A stretch of 19,463 nucleotides of DNA, from IMG/VR virus record IMGVR_UViG_3300035241_000016, positions 64,001-83,463 of that record; one strand, 5' to 3'. The notes beneath the pieces are model-generated. The model saw only the letters and a list, made by a program, of their open reading frames with translations, had not been told where the DNA came from and searched no databases. The stretch is from a virus (lineage: Duplodnaviria > Heunggongvirae > Uroviricota > Caudoviricetes). The translations under genes were made by a program, and so were the position numbers. This document shows, in pieces, positions 4,156 through 14,747 of the stretch (position 1 is the stretch's first letter; the number at the start of each line of letters is the position of its first letter).

Positions 4156-5019
4156 CTAGGCGCCCTTGAGGTTGACGCCGTGGTCGTTGCGCATGATGGC
4201 CTGGCCGCGGAGCTGCTCCACCGCCACCTTCTTGGCGAAGTAGTCGATGTCGTCGAAGTAGCGGGTGTGGGGCTTCATCTGCACCACCAGCGCCATGCAC
4301 TCCTTCTGGAACAGCAGGTTGTCGTGGCCGGCCGCGTTGGAGCCGTTCACGTTCGTGCTGAACGACACCGGGATGCCCATCCAGGTGCCCAGCACCGACT
4401 CCTTGGCCGCCTTGTTGGCATTGGCGCCCAGGCTGGAGTAGTCGCCGTTCACGAAGTGGTCCAGCTTCATCAGGCCGGCCTTCTGCGCTGGCGAGATGTC
4501 CAGGTACCGGTCGCTCTGGGGCGCGTTGGCGTCGTCCAGGTACTGCACGCCGCGCAAGATGTCCTCGTAGGTCAGATCGGCGGCGTAGGTGCCCACGGAG
4601 TTGGACAGCGAGGTTGCCAGCGCGGTGAGGGCGTCGTCGATCGACAGCGCCAGGGCGTAGCCCTGCTTGGGTGCGTAGGACTTCAGCAGGTCGCGGTTCA
4701 CCTGCGTCTCAGTCGCCGACTCCACGGCGATGGCCGAGTACTCCCAGGTGTTGACCGTCAGGGTGGTGTTGGTCTCGGTGATGGTTTCGTAGATGGTGGC
4801 CGCGTTGGCCGACAGGTTCTTGGTCTGCACCGAAAGATTCGAGATGCCGGGGACGTTCAGGGTTTGCCCCATGACCATCTCCTTCTCGAACTGGCGGTTG
4901 ACCTGGTTGGCCAGCAGCAGCGCCTGCTCGCGCGCCACGATGGCGCTCTTGCTGTAGATGGTGGGGATGAAGACCGCCGCCGTGGTGGCGTCGATGAGCT
5001 CGGTGGTTCCGGTTGCCAC
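4156..5019 (-). CDS. Major capsid protein, HK97 fold (P22/T7-like podovirus coat type; 287 aa)
   Basis: Hallmarks 'FIPTIYS', 'GQTLNVP', 'GYALA..IDD.L', 'LDDANAPQSDRY..ISP', 'GTWMGIPV..STNV'; SD GGAGG before GTG; follows the scaffold; strongly GC3-biased codons. Confidence 0.93.
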   Translation of the reverse strand: MATGTTELIDATTAAVFIPTIYSKSAIVAREQALLLANQVNRQFEKEMVMGQTLNVPGISNLSVQTKNLSANAATIYETITETNTTLTVNTWEYSAIAVESATETQVNRDLLKSYAPKQGYALALSIDDALTALATSLSNSVGTYAADLTYEDILRGVQYLDDANAPQSDRYLDISPAQKAGLMKLDHFVNGDYSSLGANANKAAKESVLGTWMGIPVSFSTNVNGSNAAGHDNLLFQKECMALVVQMKPHTRYFDDIDYFAKKVAVEQLRGQAIMRNDHGVNLKGA

Positions 5020-5036: not shown

Positions 5037-6395
5037 TCACGAAAGTGCCCCGGTGAAGAGCCCGTCGAGGATCTCGTCCTCTTTCTTCTCGAACTCCTCC
5101 CAGGGCATGTCCTCGATGTCTTTGAGGCTGAACTTCCTCGGCGCGGCTGATCCGCGCGGACCGCTGCCTACGGCGGGGCTCGGCTCGTCACCGTTCAGCT
5201 CGCCCAGCAGCTCCTTACGCAGGGCCTCGCGTTCGTCAGCCTCCCAGGCCGACCGGTCGGCGGCGGCACGAGCTTGCGCCAGCGCATCCACCATGCTGAC
5301 CAGCACGTCGGGATCGATGGTTTTGCCCTCGAATACGGCGCGATATGAGCCGGCCTCCTCTTCGGGTAAGTCATCGGCCAGTCCGGCTAGCCGGTCATGA
5401 AGATCACGCAGCGCGGCCTCTCGGACGCCATTCGTGCGATGCGCAGCGATTGCCCCGAGGGCGTCGCCGGCCCAGGATCCGAACGAGCGTACATAGTCGC
5501 CGTCGTACTGTTTGCCGGTGATGGCCGCTGAGTAGGCGTCCTGTTCCTCTTGAGGCAAAGTCTGAAGCCAGGACTCGAGCGCGGTCTTCGCTTCGGTTCT
5601 CCCGCGGTCGATGCCGGCACCATGACCTTCCTGCCGCAGGGCATTTTCATACGCCTTGCGTCGGGCTTCCTCACGCTGCTGCAGGTGGTCCTGCGACAGC
5701 GGGTGCTCGGGGTCCGCCTCGGCCATCGCGTCGAGCTGCCGCAAGCGTGCCTGCTCGGCAAGCTCGCGCTTCGCATCTTCCCGAGCCGACTGCGCCTCGT
5801 CCTGTAGCTGCCGCCTGAGCTCGTCCACCTGGTTCTTGAGGTCCCGCAGCTCTTTGCGTTCGGCCGCCATGCCTTTGTCGACCATCTCGCCAACTACGGC
5901 ATTGATCCGTGGGTGCTGCCGAAGTTCGTCGAGATCGGCTTTCGCCAAGCCTTCGCGCCAATCCGTTGCCGGTGGTTGGCCGTCTGCACCCTGGCCCTTG
6001 TCACCACCAGTGCTGGCGTCGGCCTTATCGGTGCCCTTCTTGGAGGCCCCCGCCTTCGCTGCCGCCTTGCCCTGTGGCGTCTCGGTTGAGGATGCGTCGC
6101 TTGCCGTGCCCGCCTTGCCCTTGCCATCCTGCTTCGAAGACGCGGTGTCGTCGGAGCCCTTCGCCACGTCGGCCGTTGCCTTCTGCGCTTTCGCGCCGGC
6201 GTCGGCTGCCGCTGATGCCTCGGGTTCGTTGGAGGTGGCGTCGTCGGTGTTGGACTGCTCAGGATCCGCGGTCGCGGCGTCTGCCTGAACCGGCTCCATC
6301 TCGGCTATCGCTTCCAGTACCGCCGCGGGGATCCCCGTGAGCTCGTCGGGTCGCGAGTCGGCCGATGATTCTGGCTTGTGCGCGTTGTCCGCCAT
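5037..6395 (-). CDS. Capsid scaffolding protein (452 aa)
   Basis: Acidic low-complexity N-terminus, long coiled coil, C-terminal coat-binding-type motif 'FSLKDIEDMPWEEFEKKEDEI', directly upstream of the capsid gene. ATG at 6395 preferred over the 6443 start. Confidence 0.85.
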   Translation of the reverse strand: MADNAHKPESSADSRPDELTGIPAAVLEAIAEMEPVQADAATADPEQSNTDDATSNEPEASAAADAGAKAQKATADVAKGSDDTASSKQDGKGKAGTASDASSTETPQGKAAAKAGASKKGTDKADASTGGDKGQGADGQPPATDWREGLAKADLDELRQHPRINAVVGEMVDKGMAAERKELRDLKNQVDELRRQLQDEAQSAREDAKRELAEQARLRQLDAMAEADPEHPLSQDHLQQREEARRKAYENALRQEGHGAGIDRGRTEAKTALESWLQTLPQEEQDAYSAAITGKQYDGDYVRSFGSWAGDALGAIAAHRTNGVREAALRDLHDRLAGLADDLPEEEAGSYRAVFEGKTIDPDVLVSMVDALAQARAAADRSAWEADEREALRKELLGELNGDEPSPAVGSGPRGSAAPRKFSLKDIEDMPWEEFEKKEDEILDGLFTGALS

Positions 6396-6479
6396 ACCTG
6401 CAAAACCTACAAGCCGAGGACACCGCACGCGGGCTGGTAGCACCCGCCCTGCTGGCTACATCACGGAACGAGCGCCAGC

Positions 6480-6508
6480 GTGACCAGCAACGTGAACCTC
6501 GCCATACT
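6480..6508 (+). promoter_or_regulatory. Candidate sigma70-type promoter GTGACC-N17-CATACT giving a leaderless transcript
   Basis: -35 at 6480-6485 and -10 at 6503-6508 with a 17-nt spacer; expected +1 coincides with the GTG at 6515. Confidence 0.4.
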
Positions 6509-6514
6509 CGGTGA

Positions 6515-6724
6515 GTGACACACGTCATCGAGCGCAAGGGCCACCAAGTACGAACCTGCGACGCCGGCTGGGTGTGCGAGTCTCACCCTGACCGACCCTG
6601 GCCGCACGACGTGTGCGCCGGTCCCGGGATGCCTTGCTCCAACGTCAACCGCACCTGTCCTTATTGGCCGGTGACGCCTGCGCGTGATAAATCATCTGCG
6701 CGACCGCCTGACACGCCATTGTGA
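6515..6724 (+). CDS. Small Cys/His-rich putative metal-binding protein (69 aa)
   Basis: 'CDAGWVCESHPDRPW..VCAGPGMPC' resembles a small hypothetical family recalled from other bacteria (not verified); candidate leaderless promoter; overlaps the 3' end of the DUF1828 gene by 80 nt. Confidence 0.55.
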   Translation: MTHVIERKGHQVRTCDAGWVCESHPDRPWPHDVCAGPGMPCSNVNRTCPYWPVTPARDKSSARPPDTPL

Positions 6725-6983
6725 CAGCGTGCAACGTCTTTCCGATGTCGGATGGCTTGCATCTGGCTCGCAAACTGCCACGGTACAACTCAACGTGGTA
6801 CTGAACCAGGATGTCATCGATAATCGCCTGCGAATGCGTCTTAGTTCGCGGATCGTAGCCGAGAGTAACCAAATGCCTCAGTGTTTCCCCTCGGTCGGAG
6901 ATAACGATCTCGCCCTCTAGGTCTCTTACCTCCACCTCGATGAGGTCACCATCCGGGTGAGCAAACGGGGTGATGATCGACAC
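6645..6983 (-). CDS. DUF1828-domain protein, stand-alone (no DUF1829 C-terminal domain); 112 aa from GTG
   Basis: 'IITPFAHPDGDLIEVEV...IVISDRGETL..L...G' is the DUF1828 signature; ~55% GC by hand count over 6721-6960. True start uncertain (no clear SD; frame open to 7043). Confidence 0.8.
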   Translation of the reverse strand: MSIITPFAHPDGDLIEVEVRDLEGEIVISDRGETLRHLVTLGYDPRTKTHSQAIIDDILVQYHVELYRGSLRARCKPSDIGKTLHAVTMACQAVAQMIYHAQASPANKDRCG

Positions 6984-7043
6984 CCAGCCGTCAGGCCGGA
7001 CTTCACCAGCACTCCGTTGACTCGCGCTTACCGTCGTCCAGCG

Positions 7044-7253
7044 TCAGCTCAGCGGCTCCATCAGATCGGCTGGCTTGACCCCGAGCGCCTTTGCGAGCTT
7101 TCGAATGGTGGTAACGGTGGCGCTGTCGCCGGCTTCAAGCCGAATTACCGTCTGGCGAGTCACGCCAGCCTTGGAGGCCAATTCCTCTTGAAGTAGCCCG
7201 GCTCGCCCTCTGGCGTCTTTGAGGTGCGGAATTGGGAATGTACTAGCCGGCAC
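7044..7253 (-). CDS. XRE/Cro-C1 family helix-turn-helix regulator (69 aa)
   Basis: 'LKDARGRAGLLQEELASKAGVTRQTVIRLEAG...TIRKLAKALGV....L' is a canonical HTH_3 pattern. Confidence 0.93.
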   Translation of the reverse strand: MPASTFPIPHLKDARGRAGLLQEELASKAGVTRQTVIRLEAGDSATVTTIRKLAKALGVKPADLMEPLS

Positions 7254-7262
7254 TCTGGCGTC

Positions 7263-7271
7263 AGTCTAGCA
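7263..7271 (-). promoter_or_regulatory. Candidate extended -10 promoter (TGCTAGACT) for the HTH gene
   Basis: Matches TGnTAnnnT, 9 nt upstream of the GTG at 7253 (near-leaderless); no good -35. Confidence 0.45.
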
Positions 7272-7275
7272 CAAG

Positions 7276-7330
7276 ATGTTACATGGGGTTGACATGCTCG
7301 TTACTTTGATGTAAGCTGCATGTAACAACA
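7276..7330. repeat. Five phased 11-bp degenerate repeats (consensus ATGTWACATGC), with a perfect 9-bp inverted repeat TGTTACATG/CATGTAACA; probable operator array
   Basis: Units: ATGTTACATGG, GGTTGACATGC, TCGTTACTTTG, ATGTAAGCTGC, ATGTAACAACA at 7276, 7287, 7298, 7309, 7320; inverted repeat at 7277-7285 and 7319-7327. Confidence 0.7.
7289..7317 (+). promoter_or_regulatory. Sigma70-type promoter TTGACA-N17-TAAGCT driving the DUF2958 operon
   Basis: Perfect -35 at 7289-7294, 17-nt spacer, TAnnnT -10 at 7312-7317, in the AT-richest intergenic stretch of the window. Confidence 0.8.
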
Positions 7331-7347
7331 TGAGCGTGAGGAGCCCG

Positions 7348-7641
7348 ATGCAACTACTGACCGCCGACGACATCACTCGCCTGCCGGCGCTGTACTCCCA
7401 GGAAACCGAGCCCGACCCAATGGTGCCGGTGAAGTTCTTCACGCCTGACTCTTGCTGGACCTGGTACGCCACAGAGTTCGACGGCGAAGACACCTTCTTC
7501 GGCTACGTCGACGGCCAGTTCGCAGAGCTCGGCTACTTCAGCCTGAGTGAGCTGGCCAGCGCCCGTGGGCCGCTGGGGCTGCCGATCGAACGCGACCTGC
7601 ACTGGAATCCCACGACCCGGCTCTCCACGGTGATGGCATGA
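7348..7641 (+). CDS. DUF2958 family protein (97 aa)
   Basis: 'LPALYSQE...VPVKFFTPDSCWTWYATEFDGEDTFFGYV.G...ELGYFSLSEL...RGPLGLPIERDLHW' is the DUF2958 signature; SD GAGGAG at 7338-7343 favours ATG 7348 over 7330. Confidence 0.9.
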   Translation: MQLLTADDITRLPALYSQETEPDPMVPVKFFTPDSCWTWYATEFDGEDTFFGYVDGQFAELGYFSLSELASARGPLGLPIERDLHWNPTTRLSTVMA

Positions 7642-7832
7642 GCCGAGAGGAAGCCGAGCGCCTCCAGCGCCGCTTCGCCGAACTCAATCGCGAGCGAGCG
7701 GTGGAGGACTGCCAGCACCTTATCCCCTGCCGAACGCACGACGACCACGAGCGGCTTGTCCGCTACGAGCAGCGCCACGCGCGAGGAGGCGCACCACTCA
7801 GCAAAGGAGGTTCCCGTCCAGTCAGCGATTAA
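7638..7832 (+). CDS. Small hypothetical protein with helical N-terminus and C-x-H-x2-x-C-x2-H-x2-H cluster (64 aa)
   Basis: ATGA overlap with the DUF2958 stop; 'CQHLIPCRTHDDH' motif. Confidence 0.6.
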   Translation: MSREEAERLQRRFAELNRERAVEDCQHLIPCRTHDDHERLVRYEQRHARGGAPLSKGGSRPVSD

Positions 7833-7890
7833 CCGCTGAGGCAGCCAAGCAGGGTGCGTCACCACCCGGCCGGCGATCAATGCCTCAGCG
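7822..7890 (+). other. Competing inverted repeats (putative RNA structure) upstream of the SWIM gene
   Basis: CGCTGAGGCA (7834-7843) pairs perfectly with TGCCTCAGCG (7881-7890) and encloses GGGTG-N6-CACCC (7852-7867); TCAGCG (7822-7827) can alternatively pair with CGCTGA (7834-7839). Confidence 0.5.
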
Positions 7891-7909
7891 AGACACAGGA
7901 GGTCTCGCA

Positions 7910-8383
7910 ATGCCAACCCTAACAGCGCCCCGACGGCACGCTGACGTTCACCTGGTCGCGCAGCGCAGCCTCACCCGCGCGAGCGTCCAGCATGTTCAGG
8001 TCCGGTTCGTCGAGCCCGGCCTGTACCGCTCCCATTCGAAGAGCGGCCCCGGCTGGTATGGCGTCACGGCCACCAGGTTCGGCCGCGACATCATCATTAG
8101 GTGCTCCTGCAAGGGCGGGATCTACTTTCGCGACGAGCTCGGGTCGAGCGCCTGTAAGCACGCTGTCGGCCTGGCGAAGCGGCTCGTCCGGCGACGGGAT
8201 GAGGTCAAGCTGCTGAGTCAGGCCGCGGGCGAGGAATACAACGCCTGGCTTGATGGTCAGCGCGACGCCATGATCGCTGAGGACGGGCTGCAGCCAGCTG
8301 CAGATCACCGGCCTGAGCGTGGCCGATCGGTCTCTATCTGCCGACGACGTTCCGAGATCGGGGCGGGCGCCTTATCCCGATGA
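7910..8383 (+). CDS. SWIM-type zinc finger protein (157 aa)
   Basis: 'SHSKSGPGWYGVT...IRCSCKG...ACKHAVG' is the CxC...CxH SWIM pattern with its preceding beta-hairpin; SD AGGAGG at 7897-7902 before ATG 7910. Confidence 0.85.
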   Translation: MPTLTAPRRHADVHLVAQRSLTRASVQHVQVRFVEPGLYRSHSKSGPGWYGVTATRFGRDIIIRCSCKGGIYFRDELGSSACKHAVGLAKRLVRRRDEVKLLSQAAGEEYNAWLDGQRDAMIAEDGLQPAADHRPERGRSVSICRRRSEIGAGALSR

Positions 8384-8426
8384 CACGGGCTCGACCTGCC
8401 TGCATGGGCGCCCTACACGGACTGAG

Positions 8427-11400
8427 CTACTTGCCCAGGAAGAGCCCCATCGGCCCCGCGTTCGCCGCATCCTTCTTCTCGATGGCCGATTGGATGCGGC
8501 TGGTCCTGGTCGCATCTGAGTGGGCTGGGTTGACCGCCATAGCAGAGGAGTAGAGCGACCCAATCTTCATCATGTCCGGATTCGGTTGCAATTTCGCGGC
8601 CGCGTCTTTGTTCCCTGCGCGCACTGCCGCCTGCCAGAGTCGATAGGCCGCGACGGCTTTGCTGATCTCCTGCTCACGCTCTGGATCGGTAACGAACCTG
8701 CCGTATTTCTGGGCATCCTCTTTGGCCAAGGCTCTGAACTTCGGCGGGAGCGCGGTGTGGCCGAAGTTCTCCTTCTCCTCTATGCCGGCCAGGTTCATGG
8801 CGAGCGCCTGGCCCAGCGGCAGGTGGCCGATGCCAGGGATGTACGGCATCTTATCCATAACCATCTCGCGCGGCGTGATGGCCTGGCTCGACCCCAGATA
8901 GGGGTGCAGCTTGCGATCGTACAGACTAGCCAGCAAGTTGGCGTCTTCAAGGATTCCGCCCGATACTCGCGCGGTTCCGAAGCGCACCAGGCTGCTCCCG
9001 AGCTGGGCGGCTCGCTCGCCCGGTGACAGGTCCTTCTCCTGACCCCGCATCAGCGCGTGCGGAATGGCGTGCACTTCCTCGAAGTTCCGGTTGGCGAGGT
9101 AAATCGGACGGCCTTCCGGGTCGCGCTGGCCGGAGTCGATATCCAACGCATGGCCGCTTTTGATTTGCTCGGCCGTGGGCAGGAAGTGGCCCGCGAGGAC
9201 CTGTTGCAGTGCCCCGGTCTCGATCATGTAGCCGGCTACCTTGGTCGCCTCCGCCCGCCGCACGGTGTTGATCACCATGCGCTGCTCCTCCGGGGTCAAG
9301 CCCTTCAGGTAGGCGCCCTTGTCGCCCAGACCTGGCAGTGCCGTCTTGACGAGCGTGATACGGCTCGTCGACCAGCTCGACGTGCTGGCGACATGTGACC
9401 TGACCCAGTTGGTGATAGGCCCGAAATCCGCATTCGCCAGCTGGCCGGACAGGAGATTGGCGACCTTCGCCGCGGCCTCGCCACTCATGCCCTTCGCCTT
9501 GAGCCCGCTGTACACCGCCATCTGCATATCCTGGGCGAAGGTCGCCATCGTCAGGCGGTGATTCCAATCCGACAGCCGGCCCAACGTGGCATCCAGAACG
9601 GCGTGCCCGGTCTTCAGGATGGGGATGTCGGTGCTCTCCTCCAAGGCCTGCGCCAGCTTCCCCGCCACCTCCCGGCCGGTGGAGAAGTGCAGCCCATCGC
9701 GTGCCGCGTCCATGCGCGCCGATGCGCTGGCGGTCATGGCCTTCATGTCCGCGAGGCCGCCGATGGTGGCGTCCGGGAGCGAAAGCGCCTCATGGACCAG
9801 CCGGCTGATGTGGACAAACGGGTTCATGGTGAATATCTGCATGAACAGGGTCTTGGGCTTGTCGAACGCTGCGGTTAGGACGGCTGCCACCTTCGGATGG
9901 TCCTGGGCCACCCCCCAACCAACGTCGCGTCCGCTGTAGCGCAGGATGGCGTCCTTGGCTTCTGGTGTCGCCCAGACAGCGGAATCCGCTTCGCCCGTGA
10001 GCGCCCGCGCCAACCCACGCGACACGTTCGGCACCTGGACGAGTCCCGGCGCCTTGCTACTGGAAACAGCCACCTCGCCGGCATCACTAACTAACTTCTT
10101 GAGGCGCTGGGCGAACTGCAGATCGTTCATAGGCGTCATCGCGGAGCTGACGTACTTGGCGGCGATCACTCCCGGATCCGTCACGACCGACACGCCCTTC
10201 AGGCCGCGCTCCTGGATGAACTGCTGCAGCTCCTTGGGGCTGATAACGGTAGGCCGGCTGCCTGTGGTCATCTCGTGCCAATCCTGGATGTCCCGCAGGA
10301 GCTTGGCCGAGGGAACGCCTCCGGGCCCGCGCACATCCTCAGCGGCGTTCTTGCTCACCTTCAGCAGCGCGGGGATCGCGTCCTCATTGATCCCCTGCAT
10401 GGTCGTCCGCAGCTCACCCAAACCGCCGGCCGAAAACCGCTCGGCGATGTTGTTGACCACCTGCCGCACTGCGTCCACCTTGTTCGCCGCAGCGAATGCC
10501 GCGTCCGAGGCACCTCGAGCACTGCGGCCGGCCAGGATCTCGCCAGCATCCGCAGCGTCCTTCGCCGACACCCCGGCCAGGCTTTCGAGGATCCCGCCCT
10601 GGGCCTCCCGGAGGGATTCCTTCGAGGCAGCCGCTTTGAGTGCCAGCCGGCTGGGGTCGGTGATGTCCTCGTAGCGGGTCAGGTAGTTGTCCTGCAGGTT
10701 CTTCAGGACGTCGTCGAGCTTGCCATCACCGGTGCTGGGGCGGCCGATGCCAATGTCCGATGGAGCCGCCGTCCCCGGGCCCATCGACGAACCTACAGGC
10801 TCAGGCGCAATGTCCGGCTTTACACCTGGTGTAATGACAGCAGATTCGCTAGTAGGTCCAAATGCAACGCCGCGACGCGCCAATTCCTTGCGAGCTGCTG
10901 CCGTTACTATGGCGTCTCTTGACAGTTCATCTACTGGCCGTCCCGCAATCTCCCTAAGCACGCTTTCGTCGACCTGTTCAAATGCTTCTGGCGGAAAAAA
11001 TAGATCCCGCTCGACCTCCCTTCGCGCAGCATTCCATACAGCCTCGACTTGGGCCGGGCTGGCTGCTTTGCGCGTGGTTTCGGTTGCCTGCTGAGCAGGC
11101 GACGCACCTACCGGCTCAGGCTCGAGGGCTGGGGCTTTCGTCGTCTTCCACTTGTCCACGACGTCACGCAGCGCTTGCTGACGTGCTGCAGGGTCGGTGA
11201 TGTCCGCTGCTCGTTGCGCCTCGGAAAGCACCAGGTCAAACGTTGGGCGGTCAAGCCCTGGACCAATGCGCTGGGCTACTTGGAGTAACGCGTCTTCAGC
11301 CCCCGCACTCTTCGTGCTACCTCGCAAGTAACTGTCGTACAGGCTTCGGTGTAGGTTTTCGGCGATAGCGTTCCCCATTTCGCCCACACGACTAAGGTCA

Positions 11401-14400
11401 CCTGAATCGACAGGCGCCACTCCCGCCGCCGGCGCCTCGGCCGCGCGTGCACCGGCCCCCTCCATGACGTCCCCGACGCGCTGCGCGACGGATGGCGCGC
11501 CCTGCATCTTGGCCTCAACCGCCGCCTTCCAGGCCAACTGCTGGTCCTCAGGCAGGCTCGCGACCATGCGCTGAATCACCCGCAGCTGGCTCTCATTCGT
11601 GGCGAGAACCGCCCTGGAGGCGAGGCGTTGGACGGTGTCCTCAGCCAGTTGCGCAGCGGCCTCTGCTGGTGCCTGGCCGAGCGCTGCGGCCAGTTTGGCG
11701 CCGACCTCCGGCGCGCCTGCCGTGGCAGCCGCTTTGGTGGCGGCTTGCGTCGCCTCTGCCGCTACCTCCCTCGCGGCTACACCAGGCAGGCCGGAGGCCG
11801 CTTCTTCAGCCGCTCGACCTGTCGCGGCCGCCCGGGCAGCGCCAGCAGCCGCACCTGGAAATATGAATGCCCGTGGATCGGTTAGGGCGTTGATGGCTCC
11901 GCCGACAACCGGCAACTTCGAAATTTCGGACTCCGTGTAGGGCTTTCCTGACGTTGCTTCGGCCACGACTTCAGCGACCGAATGCGTCGGCGGGAGTTGC
12001 GCTGGCTTGGTAGCAAATGCGCCAAGGCCACCGAACTGGAATGGACCGCCAGCCGGATACCCCGTCACTGGAGAAAGACCAGCTTCCTCCATGTCCTTCC
12101 GATACTTTTCGTAGTCCTCTGGCGTCCACTGGACGGCGCCAGGACGCTCGCCACTCGAAAACACCTTTCCCAGAGCGTCGATGACGCCGCCGATGACCGG
12201 CACCTTGGACGGGCCTGACTCTGCACCGGACGACACCGTCGGATTGGGAATAGTTCCGTCTGGATTCAGGCCACGCGCGACGTTATCGGCACGGGAGACG
12301 GCCTCGAACGCGGCCAGGTTTTCGGGCGTCGGGTTGGCGAGGTATGCCTCGCCCGCCGCAATCACCGCACTCGACGTGCTACTCATGGTGGCTTGACCAG
12401 CGGCCGGAGGGTGAGATGGCATAGATGGCTGCAGCGGCACGCCAACATCAGGAGACGTAAAGCCGTGGGTCGCCGCCTCGTTGGCGTTGTAGGTCGCCTC
12501 CTGCTCTGATGTCGGTTGCGCGGCTGGCTGGATGTCAAAGTTTCCGGCGGCGTTCTTCGTGACCTGCCGGAAAGTGCCGAGCCCGCCGGGCGTGCGCTCG
12601 TTGTATTGGACCACCGGCTGAGCGGCGGCCGTAGCCGCGGCGATCGTGTCCTGGGTGTCAGCCCCTCCGATAGGCCGTGGCTGCTCTGCCTGGGCCTCCA
12701 GGGCGGAGAAGTCGGCCACTGACCCCGTAGGTGGCGCCGGTGGACCAAGCATGACTGGCGGCTCTGCTGCCTGGGTTGCCTGGGGCATAGCAGCGGGTGC
12801 CGGCAGACCAGGTGCGCTTGTAGGCTCCGTCGCTTGCGCGGGAGCAGGAGTTGGCTGCGGAGCTGGCGGTGGCGTGTTAGCCGTCGCCACAGTGGGCGGG
12901 TAGGTGTTCGCGATTACACGAGACAGCGGGTTGGTGTTGGCGATAGCCGGCGACCCACCCTTGGACGGATCCCACTTCGGCTGTGGGGTTGCTTGGCTCT
13001 CCAAGGCTGCGAAGTCAGCGACCGAACCCTGAGGCTGCGGCGGCTCAGCGCCAGCGGCTACCCCCTGGTCGGCAGTGTCAGTCGCCCTGAGGCCACCGTC
13101 GACGGCGCGGCTGAATGCGTCGTAGGAGTACGGGCGTGGCTCAGGGGTAGTGACTCCTAGAAGATTCATGGCATTTTGCACGGCCGCATCAGGCGCCACC
13201 ACTGATGTATCGTCGAGCTCCCCACCCATCTGCTGCTCAGGGGACGACGCTGAAGACTTACCCACACCTACCTGACGCTTGCTTAGGCTCGGCTCAGGGG
13301 TCAGTGGATGATCGACATATAGGGCACCGTTGACGCCATCGCCCACTTCATCGATCTGCTGCGGACTCATCCACGGCGTGCCGCCAAAGCGCGCAACCGC
13401 GACCCCACTGTTGCCGACATGGTACCGGTCAGTATTTGGGTCGTAGCCATCGACGACGAAGTAATGGCGATTGGTGGATACAGCAACCGGGTTCCCATTC
13501 AGCGCATCATGCCGAATGTTCGTCCAGTTCGGAGCCTCCTCCATCTGGTTCGGCACGCCCATCTTGTCGAGCAGTGCCTTCTGGTTATCGATGCCATTCA
13601 TGCCGCCCTTCGGCGTCCAGCCCACCTGCTTGGCGATCTGAAGCGCTTCGCGCAGGCTCGGGTTCCGGCCATTCGCTCGAGCGAAGGCCACAGCCGCGGC
13701 GGGCCCGCAGGCGGCGTTGGCCTCAGCCGCATTCAACCCCTCACCAGCGTCGTACTGGAACGGCACTAGGCCGTTCCAGTCGACCCCTGCGGTTGGAACG
13801 GCTGGCGACACCGCCTGCTCGCCACCCATCTGGCCCTGGTCTTCGGTGGTACTCGGTCCTTGAGCCAGTGGATGGTCGATGAACAGCGCGCCATTCACGC
13901 CACGGCCCAGGCGGGCGATGTCATCGGCCGTCATCCATTCGGAGCCGCCACGGAGCGCGGTCCCGCTCTTCCCGACGTGGTACTGCCCGCTCGCGGTGTC
14001 ATAGCCGTCAGCAACGAAGTAGTGCTGCGGCGTCGATATTGTGACCGGCTTCCCGGACCCAGCGTCCGCAGCGATCGCTCCCCAATCGGGGGCCGTCTCC
14101 AGGCGCGAGGGCACGCCTAGTCTGTCCAGCAGCAGCTTTTGGCTTGCCGGGCCTGCCATACCGGCCTGCGGCGTCCAGCCCACCTTCTTGGCTAGGTCCG
14201 TCGCCTCGCGCAGAGTCGGGTTGCGGCCGTTGGCTCGGGCGAATGCCACTGCAGCGGCCGGCCCGCACGCCGCGTATGCCTCATCTGCGCTCAACCTGGC
14301 GTCGCCGTACTGGTCCGGCACCAGGCCGTCATCCGCGGTGCCGCCCGATCGTCGTTGCGTGGCGCCCTGCCCTGAGCTACCGCCGACTGGCGCTCCGGCA

Positions 14401-14747
14401 ACGACCGGCTGTTGGCCTGCCTTCGTCAGCCGCTCCTGGAGCTGCTTGGAGAACCCCTCGAAACTGAACGGAGACACCTCGTCCGACATCGGCATAAGCC
14501 CTGATGTCGAGAGGGCGTCGTTTGGTTCCGACGTCGCCGCCGATGTGGTTGCGTCCTTCAACGCGCTGTCCACACTGTCACTGAACGACCGATACAGCGC
14601 CTGCTGCTGGACGTCGGCTACGCCAGCATTGATCCCGCTATCCAGAGCGCGGTAGGCGTCGCTGTTCTCCTGCTGCTTGAGCTGCGTCTGACGTGCGGCG
14701 TCAGCCTGCAGGTCGCTGTTCGGAACGATGCTGAGCAGCTTGGGCAT
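8427..14747 (-). CDS. Giant internal virion/ejection protein (2106 aa) with two N-terminal C39-like papain-fold peptidase domains, a Pro/Ala-rich linker and a helical C-terminal core
   Basis: Uninterrupted 6.3 kb ORF, last and largest of three coupled Ala/Gln-rich helical ORFs; two copies of Q...ACGPAA...HYFV.DGYD; C-terminal half resembles large podovirus ejection/polyvalent proteins (inference). Confidence 0.85.
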   Translation of the reverse strand: MPKLLSIVPNSDLQADAARQTQLKQQENSDAYRALDSGINAGVADVQQQALYRSFSDSVDSALKDATTSAATSEPNDALSTSGLMPMSDEVSPFSFEGFSKQLQERLTKAGQQPVVAGAPVGGSSGQGATQRRSGGTADDGLVPDQYGDARLSADEAYAACGPAAAVAFARANGRNPTLREATDLAKKVGWTPQAGMAGPASQKLLLDRLGVPSRLETAPDWGAIAADAGSGKPVTISTPQHYFVADGYDTASGQYHVGKSGTALRGGSEWMTADDIARLGRGVNGALFIDHPLAQGPSTTEDQGQMGGEQAVSPAVPTAGVDWNGLVPFQYDAGEGLNAAEANAACGPAAAVAFARANGRNPSLREALQIAKQVGWTPKGGMNGIDNQKALLDKMGVPNQMEEAPNWTNIRHDALNGNPVAVSTNRHYFVVDGYDPNTDRYHVGNSGVAVARFGGTPWMSPQQIDEVGDGVNGALYVDHPLTPEPSLSKRQVGVGKSSASSPEQQMGGELDDTSVVAPDAAVQNAMNLLGVTTPEPRPYSYDAFSRAVDGGLRATDTADQGVAAGAEPPQPQGSVADFAALESQATPQPKWDPSKGGSPAIANTNPLSRVIANTYPPTVATANTPPPAPQPTPAPAQATEPTSAPGLPAPAAMPQATQAAEPPVMLGPPAPPTGSVADFSALEAQAEQPRPIGGADTQDTIAAATAAAQPVVQYNERTPGGLGTFRQVTKNAAGNFDIQPAAQPTSEQEATYNANEAATHGFTSPDVGVPLQPSMPSHPPAAGQATMSSTSSAVIAAGEAYLANPTPENLAAFEAVSRADNVARGLNPDGTIPNPTVSSGAESGPSKVPVIGGVIDALGKVFSSGERPGAVQWTPEDYEKYRKDMEEAGLSPVTGYPAGGPFQFGGLGAFATKPAQLPPTHSVAEVVAEATSGKPYTESEISKLPVVGGAINALTDPRAFIFPGAAAGAARAAATGRAAEEAASGLPGVAAREVAAEATQAATKAAATAGAPEVGAKLAAALGQAPAEAAAQLAEDTVQRLASRAVLATNESQLRVIQRMVASLPEDQQLAWKAAVEAKMQGAPSVAQRVGDVMEGAGARAAEAPAAGVAPVDSGDLSRVGEMGNAIAENLHRSLYDSYLRGSTKSAGAEDALLQVAQRIGPGLDRPTFDLVLSEAQRAADITDPAARQQALRDVVDKWKTTKAPALEPEPVGASPAQQATETTRKAASPAQVEAVWNAARREVERDLFFPPEAFEQVDESVLREIAGRPVDELSRDAIVTAAARKELARRGVAFGPTSESAVITPGVKPDIAPEPVGSSMGPGTAAPSDIGIGRPSTGDGKLDDVLKNLQDNYLTRYEDITDPSRLALKAAASKESLREAQGGILESLAGVSAKDAADAGEILAGRSARGASDAAFAAANKVDAVRQVVNNIAERFSAGGLGELRTTMQGINEDAIPALLKVSKNAAEDVRGPGGVPSAKLLRDIQDWHEMTTGSRPTVISPKELQQFIQERGLKGVSVVTDPGVIAAKYVSSAMTPMNDLQFAQRLKKLVSDAGEVAVSSSKAPGLVQVPNVSRGLARALTGEADSAVWATPEAKDAILRYSGRDVGWGVAQDHPKVAAVLTAAFDKPKTLFMQIFTMNPFVHISRLVHEALSLPDATIGGLADMKAMTASASARMDAARDGLHFSTGREVAGKLAQALEESTDIPILKTGHAVLDATLGRLSDWNHRLTMATFAQDMQMAVYSGLKAKGMSGEAAAKVANLLSGQLANADFGPITNWVRSHVASTSSWSTSRITLVKTALPGLGDKGAYLKGLTPEEQRMVINTVRRAEATKVAGYMIETGALQQVLAGHFLPTAEQIKSGHALDIDSGQRDPEGRPIYLANRNFEEVHAIPHALMRGQEKDLSPGERAAQLGSSLVRFGTARVSGGILEDANLLASLYDRKLHPYLGSSQAITPREMVMDKMPYIPGIGHLPLGQALAMNLAGIEEKENFGHTALPPKFRALAKEDAQKYGRFVTDPEREQEISKAVAAYRLWQAAVRAGNKDAAAKLQPNPDMMKIGSLYSSAMAVNPAHSDATRTSRIQSAIEKKDAANAGPMGLFLGK
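13293..14327 (-). repeat. Tandem intragenic duplication of a ~160-aa peptidase domain (aa 141-300 and 326-485)
   Basis: Colinear alignment throughout, with 19 identical residues AACGPAAAVAFARANGRNP; both copies are followed by a QMGGE motif. Confidence 0.93.

What the first reader, a model, noticed from the sequence alone, without database searches (positions are those of the whole stretch)
6450..8420. Self-regulated ~2 kb island of six small genes inserted in the middle of the late operon
Seen: between the giant ejection gene and the scaffold gene sit four plus-strand ORFs (opposite to all structural genes), an XRE HTH and DUF1828. They are organised around a divergent promoter with a repeat array, and part of the DNA is ~55% GC against ~68% (hand counts) in the portal gene. 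No integrase or convincing flanking repeats. Established: morons and defence/anti-defence hotspots occur between late genes, and an XRE gene divergent from an operon is a classic autoregulated switch. Inference: this combination (XRE + solo DUF1828 versus DUF2958 + Cys/His protein + SWIM finger) may be an undescribed early-acting anti-defence/host-takeover cassette or an accessory defence module. Its rightward transcript also runs head-on into the late mRNA and could act as antisense control separating ejection-protein from capsid expression. This is the best candidate for a novel system in the window.
Basis: partly seen in the sequence, partly recalled or inferred. Interest (0 to 1): 0.8.

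Follow-up and report, generated by a model that had tools for sequence, protein, structure and literature searches.

The report
Patchwork accessory island in phage late genes
The 2 kb stretch is real foreign DNA wedged between two structural genes of a temperate phage, but it is a patchwork of unrelated small genes and gene stubs grouped round one small repressor-controlled operon, not a new six-gene system.

Summary
The ORFs, the domain calls (XRE HTH, DUF1828, DUF2958, SWIM-like motif), the divergent promoter with phased repeats and the GC dip are all in the sequence. The six ORFs do not behave as one system.

- **DUF2958:** it occurs in 22 other viral contigs, 183 plasmids and 10 isolated phages without any other island gene.
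- **"Solo DUF1828":** it is an internal stub of a DUF1828/DUF1829 gene, the B gene of the untested PADLOC candidate PDC-M24. It has lost its start and its C-terminal half, and the A gene is absent from the genome.
- **SWIM-like gene:** it lacks the C-terminal domain of its only close relative.
- **The 64-aa ORF:** it is an orphan.
- **The fourth plus-strand ORF:** it belongs to a separate family of about 60-aa Cys/His proteins.
- **The only conserved linkage:** XRE divergent from the SWIM-like gene recurs on one metagenome contig without DUF2958 or the 64-aa ORF between them.

In most distant relatives the big internal-protein gene runs straight into the scaffold gene. A few carry other small, opposite-strand ORFs in that slot, which marks it as an insertion hotspot.

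Most likely reading: a moron-type mosaic whose live part is an XRE-repressed rightward operon. An anti-defence role for DUF2958 is a lead only. Other windows of this scan have already noted PDC-M24 pairs and DUF2958 on other DNA. Interest is low to moderate.

The parts
6515..6724 (+). 69-aa Cys/His ORF. The conserved core is residues 14-45 (6554-6649, motif GWVCE.H..P.PHD.C.GPGMPC). The tail is not conserved and overlaps the DUF1828 stub. It is divergent from the scaffold gene.
   Evidence: The core is 72-76% identical to small ORFs in two other viral contigs, L041 and L042. In L042 the ORF is 65 aa and lies just upstream of a 750-aa ORF. Atlas feature hits of 0.94-0.95 go to clusters of 61-63-aa hypothetical proteins. 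GC3 is 0.84 in the core and 0.69 overall. There is no good ribosome-binding site, and no homologue of similar length was found by word index.
6645..7022 (-). Internal stub of a DUF1828/DUF1829 (PDC-M24B-type) gene. The ORF from GTG 6983 gives 112 aa. Homology runs on to 7022 with no start codon, and the C-terminal half is missing.
   Evidence: Pfam DUF1828 scores 4e-13. PADLOC PDC-M24B scores 3.6e-16 but covers only profile positions 27-122 of 256. Of 175 relatives the modal length is about 257 aa, and their matches start near residue 28-32. P0004 residues 16-127 align to window 7022-6687. No DUF1829 or DUF6978 is found in the genome. GC3 is 0.67.
7044..7253 (-). Intact 69-aa XRE-family HTH regulator, probably translated from a leaderless mRNA.
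   Evidence: HTH_3 scores 2.5e-15. It aligns over its full length with three relatives that are 54-58% identical and share an invariant C-terminal TIRKLAKALGVKPADLM. Two of these relatives sit next to large serine recombinases and one is divergent from the SWIM-like homologue.
7254..7347 (.). Divergent control region. Rightward promoter: -35 TTGACA (7289-7294), 17-nt spacer, -10 TAAGCT (7312-7317). Leftward promoter: extended -10 TGCTAGACT on the minus strand (7271-7263). Candidate operators: 9-bp inverted repeat TGTTACATG / CATGTAACA (7277-7285, 7319-7327). Pentamers repeat every 11 bp. GAGGAG (7338-7343) lies ahead of ATG 7348.
   Evidence: Read directly. Each repeat arm occurs once in 83,463 bp, against 0.09 expected per strand. 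The generic sigma-70 scan did not score the promoter because its -10 matches only TANNNT.
7348..7641 (+). Intact DUF2958 gene of 97 aa from ATG 7348. The ORF is also open from 7330.
   Evidence: PF11171 scores 68.6 bits against a cut-off of 21. All 11 invariant columns of a 15-sequence alignment are kept. The AF2 model has pLDDT 92.9 and is a small SH3/Sm-like barrel with no solved relative: Foldseek finds none at E<=0.001 and VIA gives Z<=4.5. GC3 is 0.85.
7638..7832 (+). 64-aa orphan ORF with a C.H....C..H..H motif. Its ATG overlaps the DUF2958 stop (ATGA). Whether it codes is uncertain.
   Evidence: The overlap is seen. There is no family hit, no viral relative and no Atlas feature hit. GC by codon position is 0.78/0.48/0.71, which does not separate it from the antisense ORF 7533-7916.
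7835..7906 (+). Conserved structured leader of the SWIM-like gene: a long hairpin (7835-7889) followed by a short hairpin (7890-7906) that carries the AGGAGG ribosome-binding site in its loop.
   Evidence: DNA homology with L043 starts at 7837, just after the stop of the 64-aa ORF. Both copies fold alike, at -37 and -38.9 kcal/mol with z -3.45 and -4.2. The short hairpin has different stem sequences in the two copies.
7910..8383 (+). SWIM-like gene of 157 aa from ATG 7910. Residues 1-129 are conserved. The last 28 or so codons (8297-8383) replace the C-terminal Cys-rich domain of its only relative.
   Evidence: It is 76% identical over 129 aa to P0002 (233 aa). The motif is C-x-C-x14-C-x-H. 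Pfam SWIM scores E=0.072, below its cut-off. Atlas leads point to small SWIM proteins at scores of 0.85-0.87. GC3 is 0.82 in the conserved part and 0.55 in the tail.

Best explanation
The island is a moron-type mosaic that has built up in a variable slot between the large internal-virion-protein gene and the scaffold gene of a temperate, high-GC phage.

**The live part.** It is one small transcription unit borrowed from the switch region of another mobile element.
- The XRE protein (7044-7253) is made from a weak leftward promoter, probably as a leaderless mRNA.
- XRE binds the private 9-bp inverted repeat that brackets the rightward promoter (TTGACA-17 nt-TAAGCT). This shuts off the rightward operon DUF2958, 64-aa ORF, structured leader and SWIM-like gene, and limits XRE's own synthesis.
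- On entry into a cell without XRE the operon would fire from host RNA polymerase and then be turned down.

**History.** DUF2958 and the 64-aa ORF were inserted between the promoter and the conserved leader of the SWIM-like gene, or were lost from the one relative.

**The remaining pieces.** These are debris or independent passengers.
- The DUF1828 ORF is a dead stub of a PDC-M24B-type gene that once lay behind the regulator.
- The 69-aa Cys/His ORF is a separate small phage gene with a scrambled tail.

**Shown:** the anatomy, the truncations, the lack of co-occurrence and the XRE/SWIM linkage.
**Inferred:** promoter activity, XRE binding to the repeats, the timing of expression and any function of DUF2958 or the SWIM-like protein.
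For: **Not a unit**
- None of the 22 viral loci with DUF2958 relatives holds another island protein.
- Five whole phage records with the closest DUF2958 relatives have no SWIM domain. Only one has an HTH_3, about 70 kb from its DUF2958 gene.
- DUF2958 is also on 183 plasmids, 125 of them conjugative, and in 10 isolated phages.

**Truncations**
- DUF1828 homology covers only residues 16-127 of a 257-aa relative and runs upstream of the only start codon. DUF1829 and DUF6978 are absent from the genome.
- The SWIM-like gene lacks residues 145-233 of P0002, and its tail has GC3 of 0.55.

**Conserved core**
- On L043 an XRE 60% identical to the window's is divergent from the SWIM-like homologue (75-76% identical) with nothing between them.
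- DNA homology resumes at 7837, right after the 64-aa ORF.

**Switch-type origin**
- The other two XRE relatives abut large serine recombinases.
- This phage has its own serine recombinase. It also has a separate 209-aa HTH_3 gene divergent from an Xis-like gene about 24 kb upstream of the island.

**Private operator**
- Each arm of the inverted repeat is unique in the genome.

**Insertion**
- In L055, L058, L068, L077, L003, L004 and L066 the large gene is followed by same-strand scaffold-like genes.
- L002/L051, L039, L009 and L069 carry different small opposite-strand ORFs in that slot.

**Composition**
- The XRE and DUF1828 part has GC of 0.57-0.61 and GC3 of 0.64-0.67, against 0.74-0.96 in the flanking genes.
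Against: - No close relative of this phage exists in the collections searched; the best capsid-protein identity is 63%. The "empty site" therefore rests on gene order in distant relatives, not on a true before-and-after pair.
- The XRE/SWIM linkage rests on a single independent contig.
- Promoters and operators are read from sequence only, and the generic promoter scan did not score them.
- A few short DUF1828 proteins without the N-terminal extension exist among the relatives (P0020, P0107), so a working short form cannot be ruled out.
- Rare, fast-evolving partners could escape the similarity thresholds used.
Confidence: 0.6

Rival explanations
1. Relic of a second immunity region. The XRE, its operators and the rightward genes are what is left of another temperate element's repressor and early-gene switch. 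The prophage keeps them because XRE represses incoming phages or elements that carry the same operator, giving heteroimmunity or exclusion. The rightward genes would be incidental.
For: XRE relatives lie in lysogeny-type settings next to large serine recombinases. In L049 the relative is divergent from a 17-gene early operon. XRE is intact while its neighbours are decayed. The phage already has another candidate main switch.
Against: The operator is unique in this genome and no target phage is known. DUF2958 is intact, has a strong ribosome-binding site and host-like GC3 of 0.85, which suggests the rightward operon is still under selection.
Confidence: 0.2
2. Early anti-defence burst cassette, a narrowed form of the first reader's idea. 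The XRE-gated operon gives a short pulse of DUF2958, perhaps with the SWIM-like protein, at DNA entry to neutralise a host defence. This would parallel the establishment genes of conjugative plasmids.
For: DUF2958 is common on conjugative plasmids (125 of 183 hits). In pCHQ1 it sits beside a zincin-like metallopeptidase-domain gene, the annotation that ArdC-type anti-restriction proteins usually carry (my reading), and near a large ParB-family gene. It is a small, confidently folded single-domain protein. A repressor-gated promoter that is open in a naive cell fits pulse expression.
Against: No function is known for DUF2958; only 2 papers mention it, in passing. It has no PADLOC match and no structural relative. 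It travels alone, so nothing ties its role to the other island genes.
Confidence: 0.12
3. Coherent six-gene defence or anti-defence system, as first proposed, possibly with antisense control of late mRNA.
For: The ORFs are compactly arranged round one regulator. The DUF1828 ORF matches a PADLOC defence candidate. The rightward transcript is convergent with the giant gene, and no terminator stands out.
Against: The set does not co-occur elsewhere. The PADLOC match is to a stub whose partner gene is absent. Two further ORFs are truncated or orphan.
Confidence: 0.04
4. Assembly chimera: the island was joined to the phage contig by mis-assembly.
For: The core has lower GC and several abrupt homology breakpoints.
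Against: The record is one 83,463-bp contig with 127-bp terminal repeats, rated complete. DUF2958 and the SWIM-like gene have phage-like GC3. A chimera would need two joints that restore the structural gene order.
Confidence: 0.03

Closest known systems
Phage morons and accessory-gene hotspots inside late operons (for example the lambdoid morons described by Juhala/Hendrix; cited from my own knowledge)
   Same: It is extra DNA between two conserved structural genes and is missing from most relatives. Part of it has atypical composition, and it has its own promoter and regulator, independent of late transcription.
   Different: It is not a single gene with a promoter and terminator. It is a 2-kb patchwork of six ORFs on both strands, two of them truncated, with no recognisable terminator.
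PADLOC phage-defence candidate PDC-M24 (a DUF6978 gene followed by a DUF1828/DUF1829 gene; candidate set of Payne et al. 2024, bioRxiv 10.1101/2024.01.29.577857)
   Same: The 6645-7022 stretch matches the B-gene models (E 3.6e-16). It lies directly behind a repressor-like gene, a position that another window of this scan reports for intact pairs.
   Different: Only positions 27-122 of 256 are present. There is no start codon at the true N-terminus, no DUF1829 half and no A gene anywhere in the genome. It is a relic, not a member.
CI/Cro-type divergent switch regions of temperate phages and C-protein-type autoregulated operons
   Same: A small XRE protein is divergent from an operon, and inverted repeats bracket the promoter.
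   Different: No second (Cro-like) regulator is present. It lies far from the integrase and from the phage's other candidate switch, and it governs three small accessory ORFs rather than the lytic programme.
DUF2958 (PF11171) genes of conjugative plasmids, integrative elements and phages
   Same: It is a clear family member with all conserved residues and is a small stand-alone protein.
   Different: Here it sits under an XRE-controlled promoter inside a phage structural block. Elsewhere it lies among plasmid establishment genes or phage early genes.

Membership tests
PDC-M24 (PADLOC candidate defence pair) | An A gene (DUF6978) immediately upstream of, and overlapping, the B gene | tested here: not met
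   PF22398 gives no match in the whole 83-kb genome at E<=1. In relatives L045 and L046 the DUF6978 gene overlaps the DUF1828 gene by 4 nt.
PDC-M24 (PADLOC candidate defence pair) | A full-length B protein of about 256 aa with both DUF1828 and DUF1829 halves | tested here: not met
   The match covers profile positions 27-122 of 256. There is no DUF1829 in the genome. Homology to P0004 stops at its residue 127 and starts at residue 16, upstream of any start codon.
DUF2958 (PF11171) | Profile score above the curated cut-off and conserved core residues | tested here: met
   The score is 68.6 bits against a cut-off of 21. F31, E43, D45, F51, G52, G56, L66, E68, E81, R82 and D83 are all kept.
XRE / HTH_3 (PF01381) regulators | A complete helix-turn-helix domain above the cut-off | tested here: met
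   The score is 56.7 bits against a cut-off of 23, covering residues 11-64. It aligns over its full length with three relatives.
SWIM zinc finger (PF04434) | The CxCxnCxH signature | tested here: met
   C65, C67, C82 and H84 (numbered from ATG 7910) are kept in P0002.
SWIM zinc finger (PF04434) | Profile score above the curated cut-off, or a confident SWIM fold | tested here: inconclusive
   The score is 13.1 bits against a cut-off of 19.6. The AF2 model has pLDDT of only 56.7. Atlas leads to SWIM clusters score 0.85-0.87, below the level that counts as evidence.
Moron (independent accessory transcription unit in a phage late region) | Absent from the same position in related phages | tested here: met
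   Seven distant relatives have the large gene followed directly by same-strand scaffold-like genes. Four have other small ORFs there. Only synteny in distant relatives was available (39-63% capsid-protein identity).
Moron (independent accessory transcription unit in a phage late region) | Own promoter and own terminator | tested here: inconclusive
   A promoter-like TTGACA-17 nt-TAAGCT is seen by eye but not scored by the scan. No terminator-like hairpin stands above shuffles. There are no expression data.
Type II toxin-antitoxin pair with an XRE antitoxin | An intact downstream toxin gene co-transcribed with the XRE gene | tested here: not met
   The only downstream ORF is the truncated DUF1828 stub. 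NCBIfam antitoxin models score far below their cut-offs.

The most novel reading that the evidence does not exclude
The XRE-gated promoter gives a brief burst of DUF2958, possibly with the SWIM-like protein, when the phage DNA enters a cell. DUF2958 would then be a widespread, so far unrecognised establishment or anti-defence protein shared by phages and conjugative plasmids.
Probability: 0.12. Interest if true: 0.55.

Novelty: new member of a known kind. Interest (0 to 1): 0.22.

Why it matters
It shows in detail how an accessory slot inside a phage structural operon fills up. A regulator-plus-gene module was captured from another element, a second cassette was inserted exactly between its promoter and its leader, and a defence-candidate gene was left to decay behind the regulator.

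It removes a false lead for a new six-gene system. The testable pieces that remain are the XRE with its unique operator, and DUF2958, a very common plasmid and phage protein with a confident but unmatched fold and no known role.

Tried and rejected
- **SWIM-like gene:** no relatives in viral contigs, in the metagenome scan or in 401 sampled genomes of the phylum of a distant host candidate. Only P0002 was found.
- **The 64-aa ORF:** no relatives.
- **The 69-aa ORF:** the word-index search found nothing of similar length.
- **Solved structures:** none match DUF2958, DUF1828 or P0002 by sequence. The DUF2958 model gives only weak small-barrel resemblances.
- **SWIM-like model:** its confidence is too low to search with.
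- **Rfam:** no credible RNA family. There are no tRNAs.
- **Flanking direct repeats:** only a 15-nt pair at 80% identity, which is chance level.
- **Terminators at the convergent junctions:** nothing above shuffles.
- **Small ORFs in the same slot of relatives:** PHROGs and Pfam give nothing informative.
- **A true empty site:** none could be found, because no relative closer than 63% capsid-protein identity exists in the three collections.
- **Literature:** DUF2958 and DUF1828 are mentioned only in passing, and PDC-M24 is not found by name.
Full report
**Setting.** The window is the last 19.5 kb of an 83,463-bp viral record with 127-bp terminal repeats, rated complete. The genome is about 65% GC and almost every gene lies on the minus strand. 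It encodes a 545-aa large serine recombinase. A 209-aa HTH_3 protein divergent from an Xis-like HTH gene lies about 24 kb upstream of the island. The phage is therefore temperate and has a candidate main switch elsewhere. In the window the minus strand carries an HK97-type major head protein (4156-5019; PHROG 267, 2.5e-28). It also carries an acidic, Ala-rich scaffold-like gene (5037-6443, probably starting near 6395) and a 2106-aa gene (8427-14747).

**Checking the observation.** The six ORFs are present at the stated places.
- Pfam confirms DUF1828 (4e-13), HTH_3 (2.5e-15) and DUF2958 (7e-19). SWIM scores only E=0.072, although the CxC-x14-CxH signature is there.
- The control region holds TTGACA, a 17-nt spacer and TAAGCT. 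It also holds five GTWAC-like pentamers spaced exactly 11 bp apart.
- A perfect 9-bp inverted repeat brackets the promoter. Each arm occurs once in the whole genome, against 0.09 expected.
- GC drops to 0.57-0.61 between about 6600 and 7500.
- No integrase lies in the island and there are no meaningful flanking repeats.

**What each piece is.**
- *DUF2958.*
  - The likely start is ATG 7348, behind GAGGAG, which matches the MKLLT-type starts of relatives.
  - All invariant residues are kept and GC3 is 0.85.
  - With 15 sequences it folds at pLDDT 92.9 into a small SH3/Sm-like barrel. No solved relative was found.
- *The 64-aa ORF.*
  - It overlaps the DUF2958 stop in an ATGA.
  - It has no relative anywhere.
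  - Its codon-position GC does not separate it from an antisense ORF.
- *The SWIM-like gene.*
  - It most likely starts at ATG 7910, seven nucleotides after AGGAGG.
  - Its only relative, P0002 (233 aa), starts at the same MPTLTAPRR and is 76% identical over 129 residues.
  - P0002 then continues into a Cys-rich domain of about 90 residues that the window lacks.
  - The window's last codons have GC3 of 0.55, against 0.82 in the conserved part.
- *The DUF1828 ORF.*
  - It is a stub. Among 175 relatives the modal length is about 257 aa, and the matches begin near their residue 28-32.
  - The best relative aligns by its residues 16-127 to window 7022-6687. That is 13 codons beyond the only available start codon, and it ends well short of the C-terminal half.
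  - PADLOC assigns the stub to PDC-M24B over profile positions 27-122 of 256.
  - Full-length relatives follow an overlapping DUF6978 gene; in L045 and L046 the pair lies beside an OLD-family ATPase/TOPRIM gene and a UvrD-type helicase gene. My reading is that this is a Gabija-like pair.
  - This genome has neither DUF6978 nor DUF1829.
- *The 69-aa Cys/His ORF.*
  - It has a conserved core (residues 14-45) shared with small ORFs in two unrelated viral contigs.
  - Atlas features link it to clusters of about 60-aa hypothetical proteins.
  - Its tail is not conserved and overlaps the DUF1828 stub.
- *XRE.*
  - It is intact and aligns end to end with three relatives.

**Do the genes travel together?** Mostly they do not.
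- The 22 viral loci with DUF2958 relatives contain none of the other five proteins.
- In five whole phage records with the closest DUF2958 relatives no SWIM domain is found. Only one has an HTH_3, about 70 kb from its DUF2958 gene.
- DUF2958 is also found on 183 plasmids, 125 of them conjugative, and in 10 isolated phages.
  - In pCHQ1 it lies beside a zincin-like metallopeptidase-domain gene (ArdC-like, in my reading) and near a ParB-family gene.
- The one conserved linkage is XRE with the SWIM-like gene.
  - On the 5.2-kb metagenome contig L043 an XRE 60% identical to the window's is divergent from the SWIM-like homologue, with only a promoter region between them.
  - DNA homology to L043 resumes at window 7837, five bases after the stop of the 64-aa ORF. 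It covers a structured leader that folds alike in both copies.
- DUF2958 and the 64-aa ORF therefore lie between the promoter and the leader of an older XRE/SWIM module, or they were lost from L043.
- The two other XRE relatives abut large serine recombinases. One is divergent from a long early operon. This points to a switch-region origin.

**Is it an insertion?**
- No close relative of the phage was found. The best capsid-protein identity is 63% in viral, genome and metagenome collections, and other proteins barely align.
- Gene order is nevertheless conserved: portal-sized gene, medium gene, large gene, scaffold-like gene, capsid gene.
- In L055, L058, L068, L077, L003, L004 and L066 the large gene is followed by same-strand scaffold-like genes.
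- In L002/L051, L039, L009 and L069 the slot holds other small opposite-strand ORFs of unknown function.
- The slot is thus usually empty and sometimes filled with different cargo, which is how an accessory hotspot behaves.

**How it most likely works.**
- Host RNA polymerase uses the rightward promoter to transcribe DUF2958, the 64-aa ORF, the leader and the SWIM-like gene.
- XRE is made from an extended -10 promoter whose start falls at or next to its GTG. It binds the repeat arms at 7277-7285 and 7319-7327.
- One arm lies next to the -35 box and the other over the expected transcription start, so binding represses the operon and probably limits XRE's own synthesis.
- All of this is inference from anatomy.

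**Comparison with what is known, and verdict.**
- The island fits the known pattern of morons and accessory hotspots in phage late regions.
- It fails the membership tests for PDC-M24.
- It contains ordinary members of the XRE and DUF2958 families.
- As a six-gene system it is not supported.
- As a worked example of mosaic accretion it is modestly instructive: a captured regulator module, a nested insertion and a decayed defence-candidate gene.
- The only lead with wider reach is DUF2958. Its frequent presence on conjugative plasmids and in phages, together with a confident orphan fold, makes an establishment or anti-defence role worth testing. Nothing here shows such a role.

Noticed in passing
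window 7835-7906 and L043 1549-1617: The leader of the SWIM-like gene forms a long hairpin, then a short hairpin that shows the ribosome-binding site in its loop. The short stem differs in sequence between the two copies (GAGAC/GUCUC against GCGGAA/UUCCGC) yet pairs in both. With only two sequences this is weak covariation evidence.
   Followed up: partly
window 7044-7046 and 6983-7043: The XRE stop codon is in the same reading frame as the DUF1828 stub, 20 codons upstream of its GTG. A single read-through would fuse the two. This is probably chance (one in three) or a trace of the deletion that removed the intervening DNA.
   Followed up: no
L002/L051 8639-8908; L039 7764-9035; L009 9014-9855; L069 2362-3038: Distant relatives carry different small opposite-strand ORFs in the same slot between the large internal-protein gene and the scaffold or capsid gene. 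None has an informative family match.
   Followed up: partly
L049 1-8704: A temperate-phage contig with a 61%-identical XRE. That XRE is divergent from an early operon of 17 small genes that includes an Acb2/Tad1-hairpin-domain protein and RecT, and it lies next to a 590-aa serine recombinase.
   Followed up: no
own genome 46901-47530 (L033 1468-2097), outside the window: A 209-aa HTH_3 protein on the plus strand, divergent from a 66-aa Xis-like HTH gene. It is the phage's likely main lysogeny switch and is separate from the island's XRE.
   Followed up: partly
L043 2322-3253: The ORFs downstream of the SWIM-like homologue end in similar Cys motifs (CDCPE, CGCPEFA, CGCPEVE). This suggests a small paralogous family of unknown function.
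   Followed up: no
window 7047-7253 and relatives P0154, P0155, L043 1300-1485: The four XRE proteins share an invariant C-terminal stretch, TIRKLAKALGVKPADLM, while the predicted recognition helix varies. This fits a conserved scaffold with different operator specificities.
   Followed up: partly
window 6396-6514: If the scaffold gene starts at the internal ATG near 6395, it is divergent from the 69-aa Cys/His ORF across about 120 bp. That would be a second divergent intergenic region in the island and could hold a promoter for the scaffold and capsid genes.
   Followed up: no
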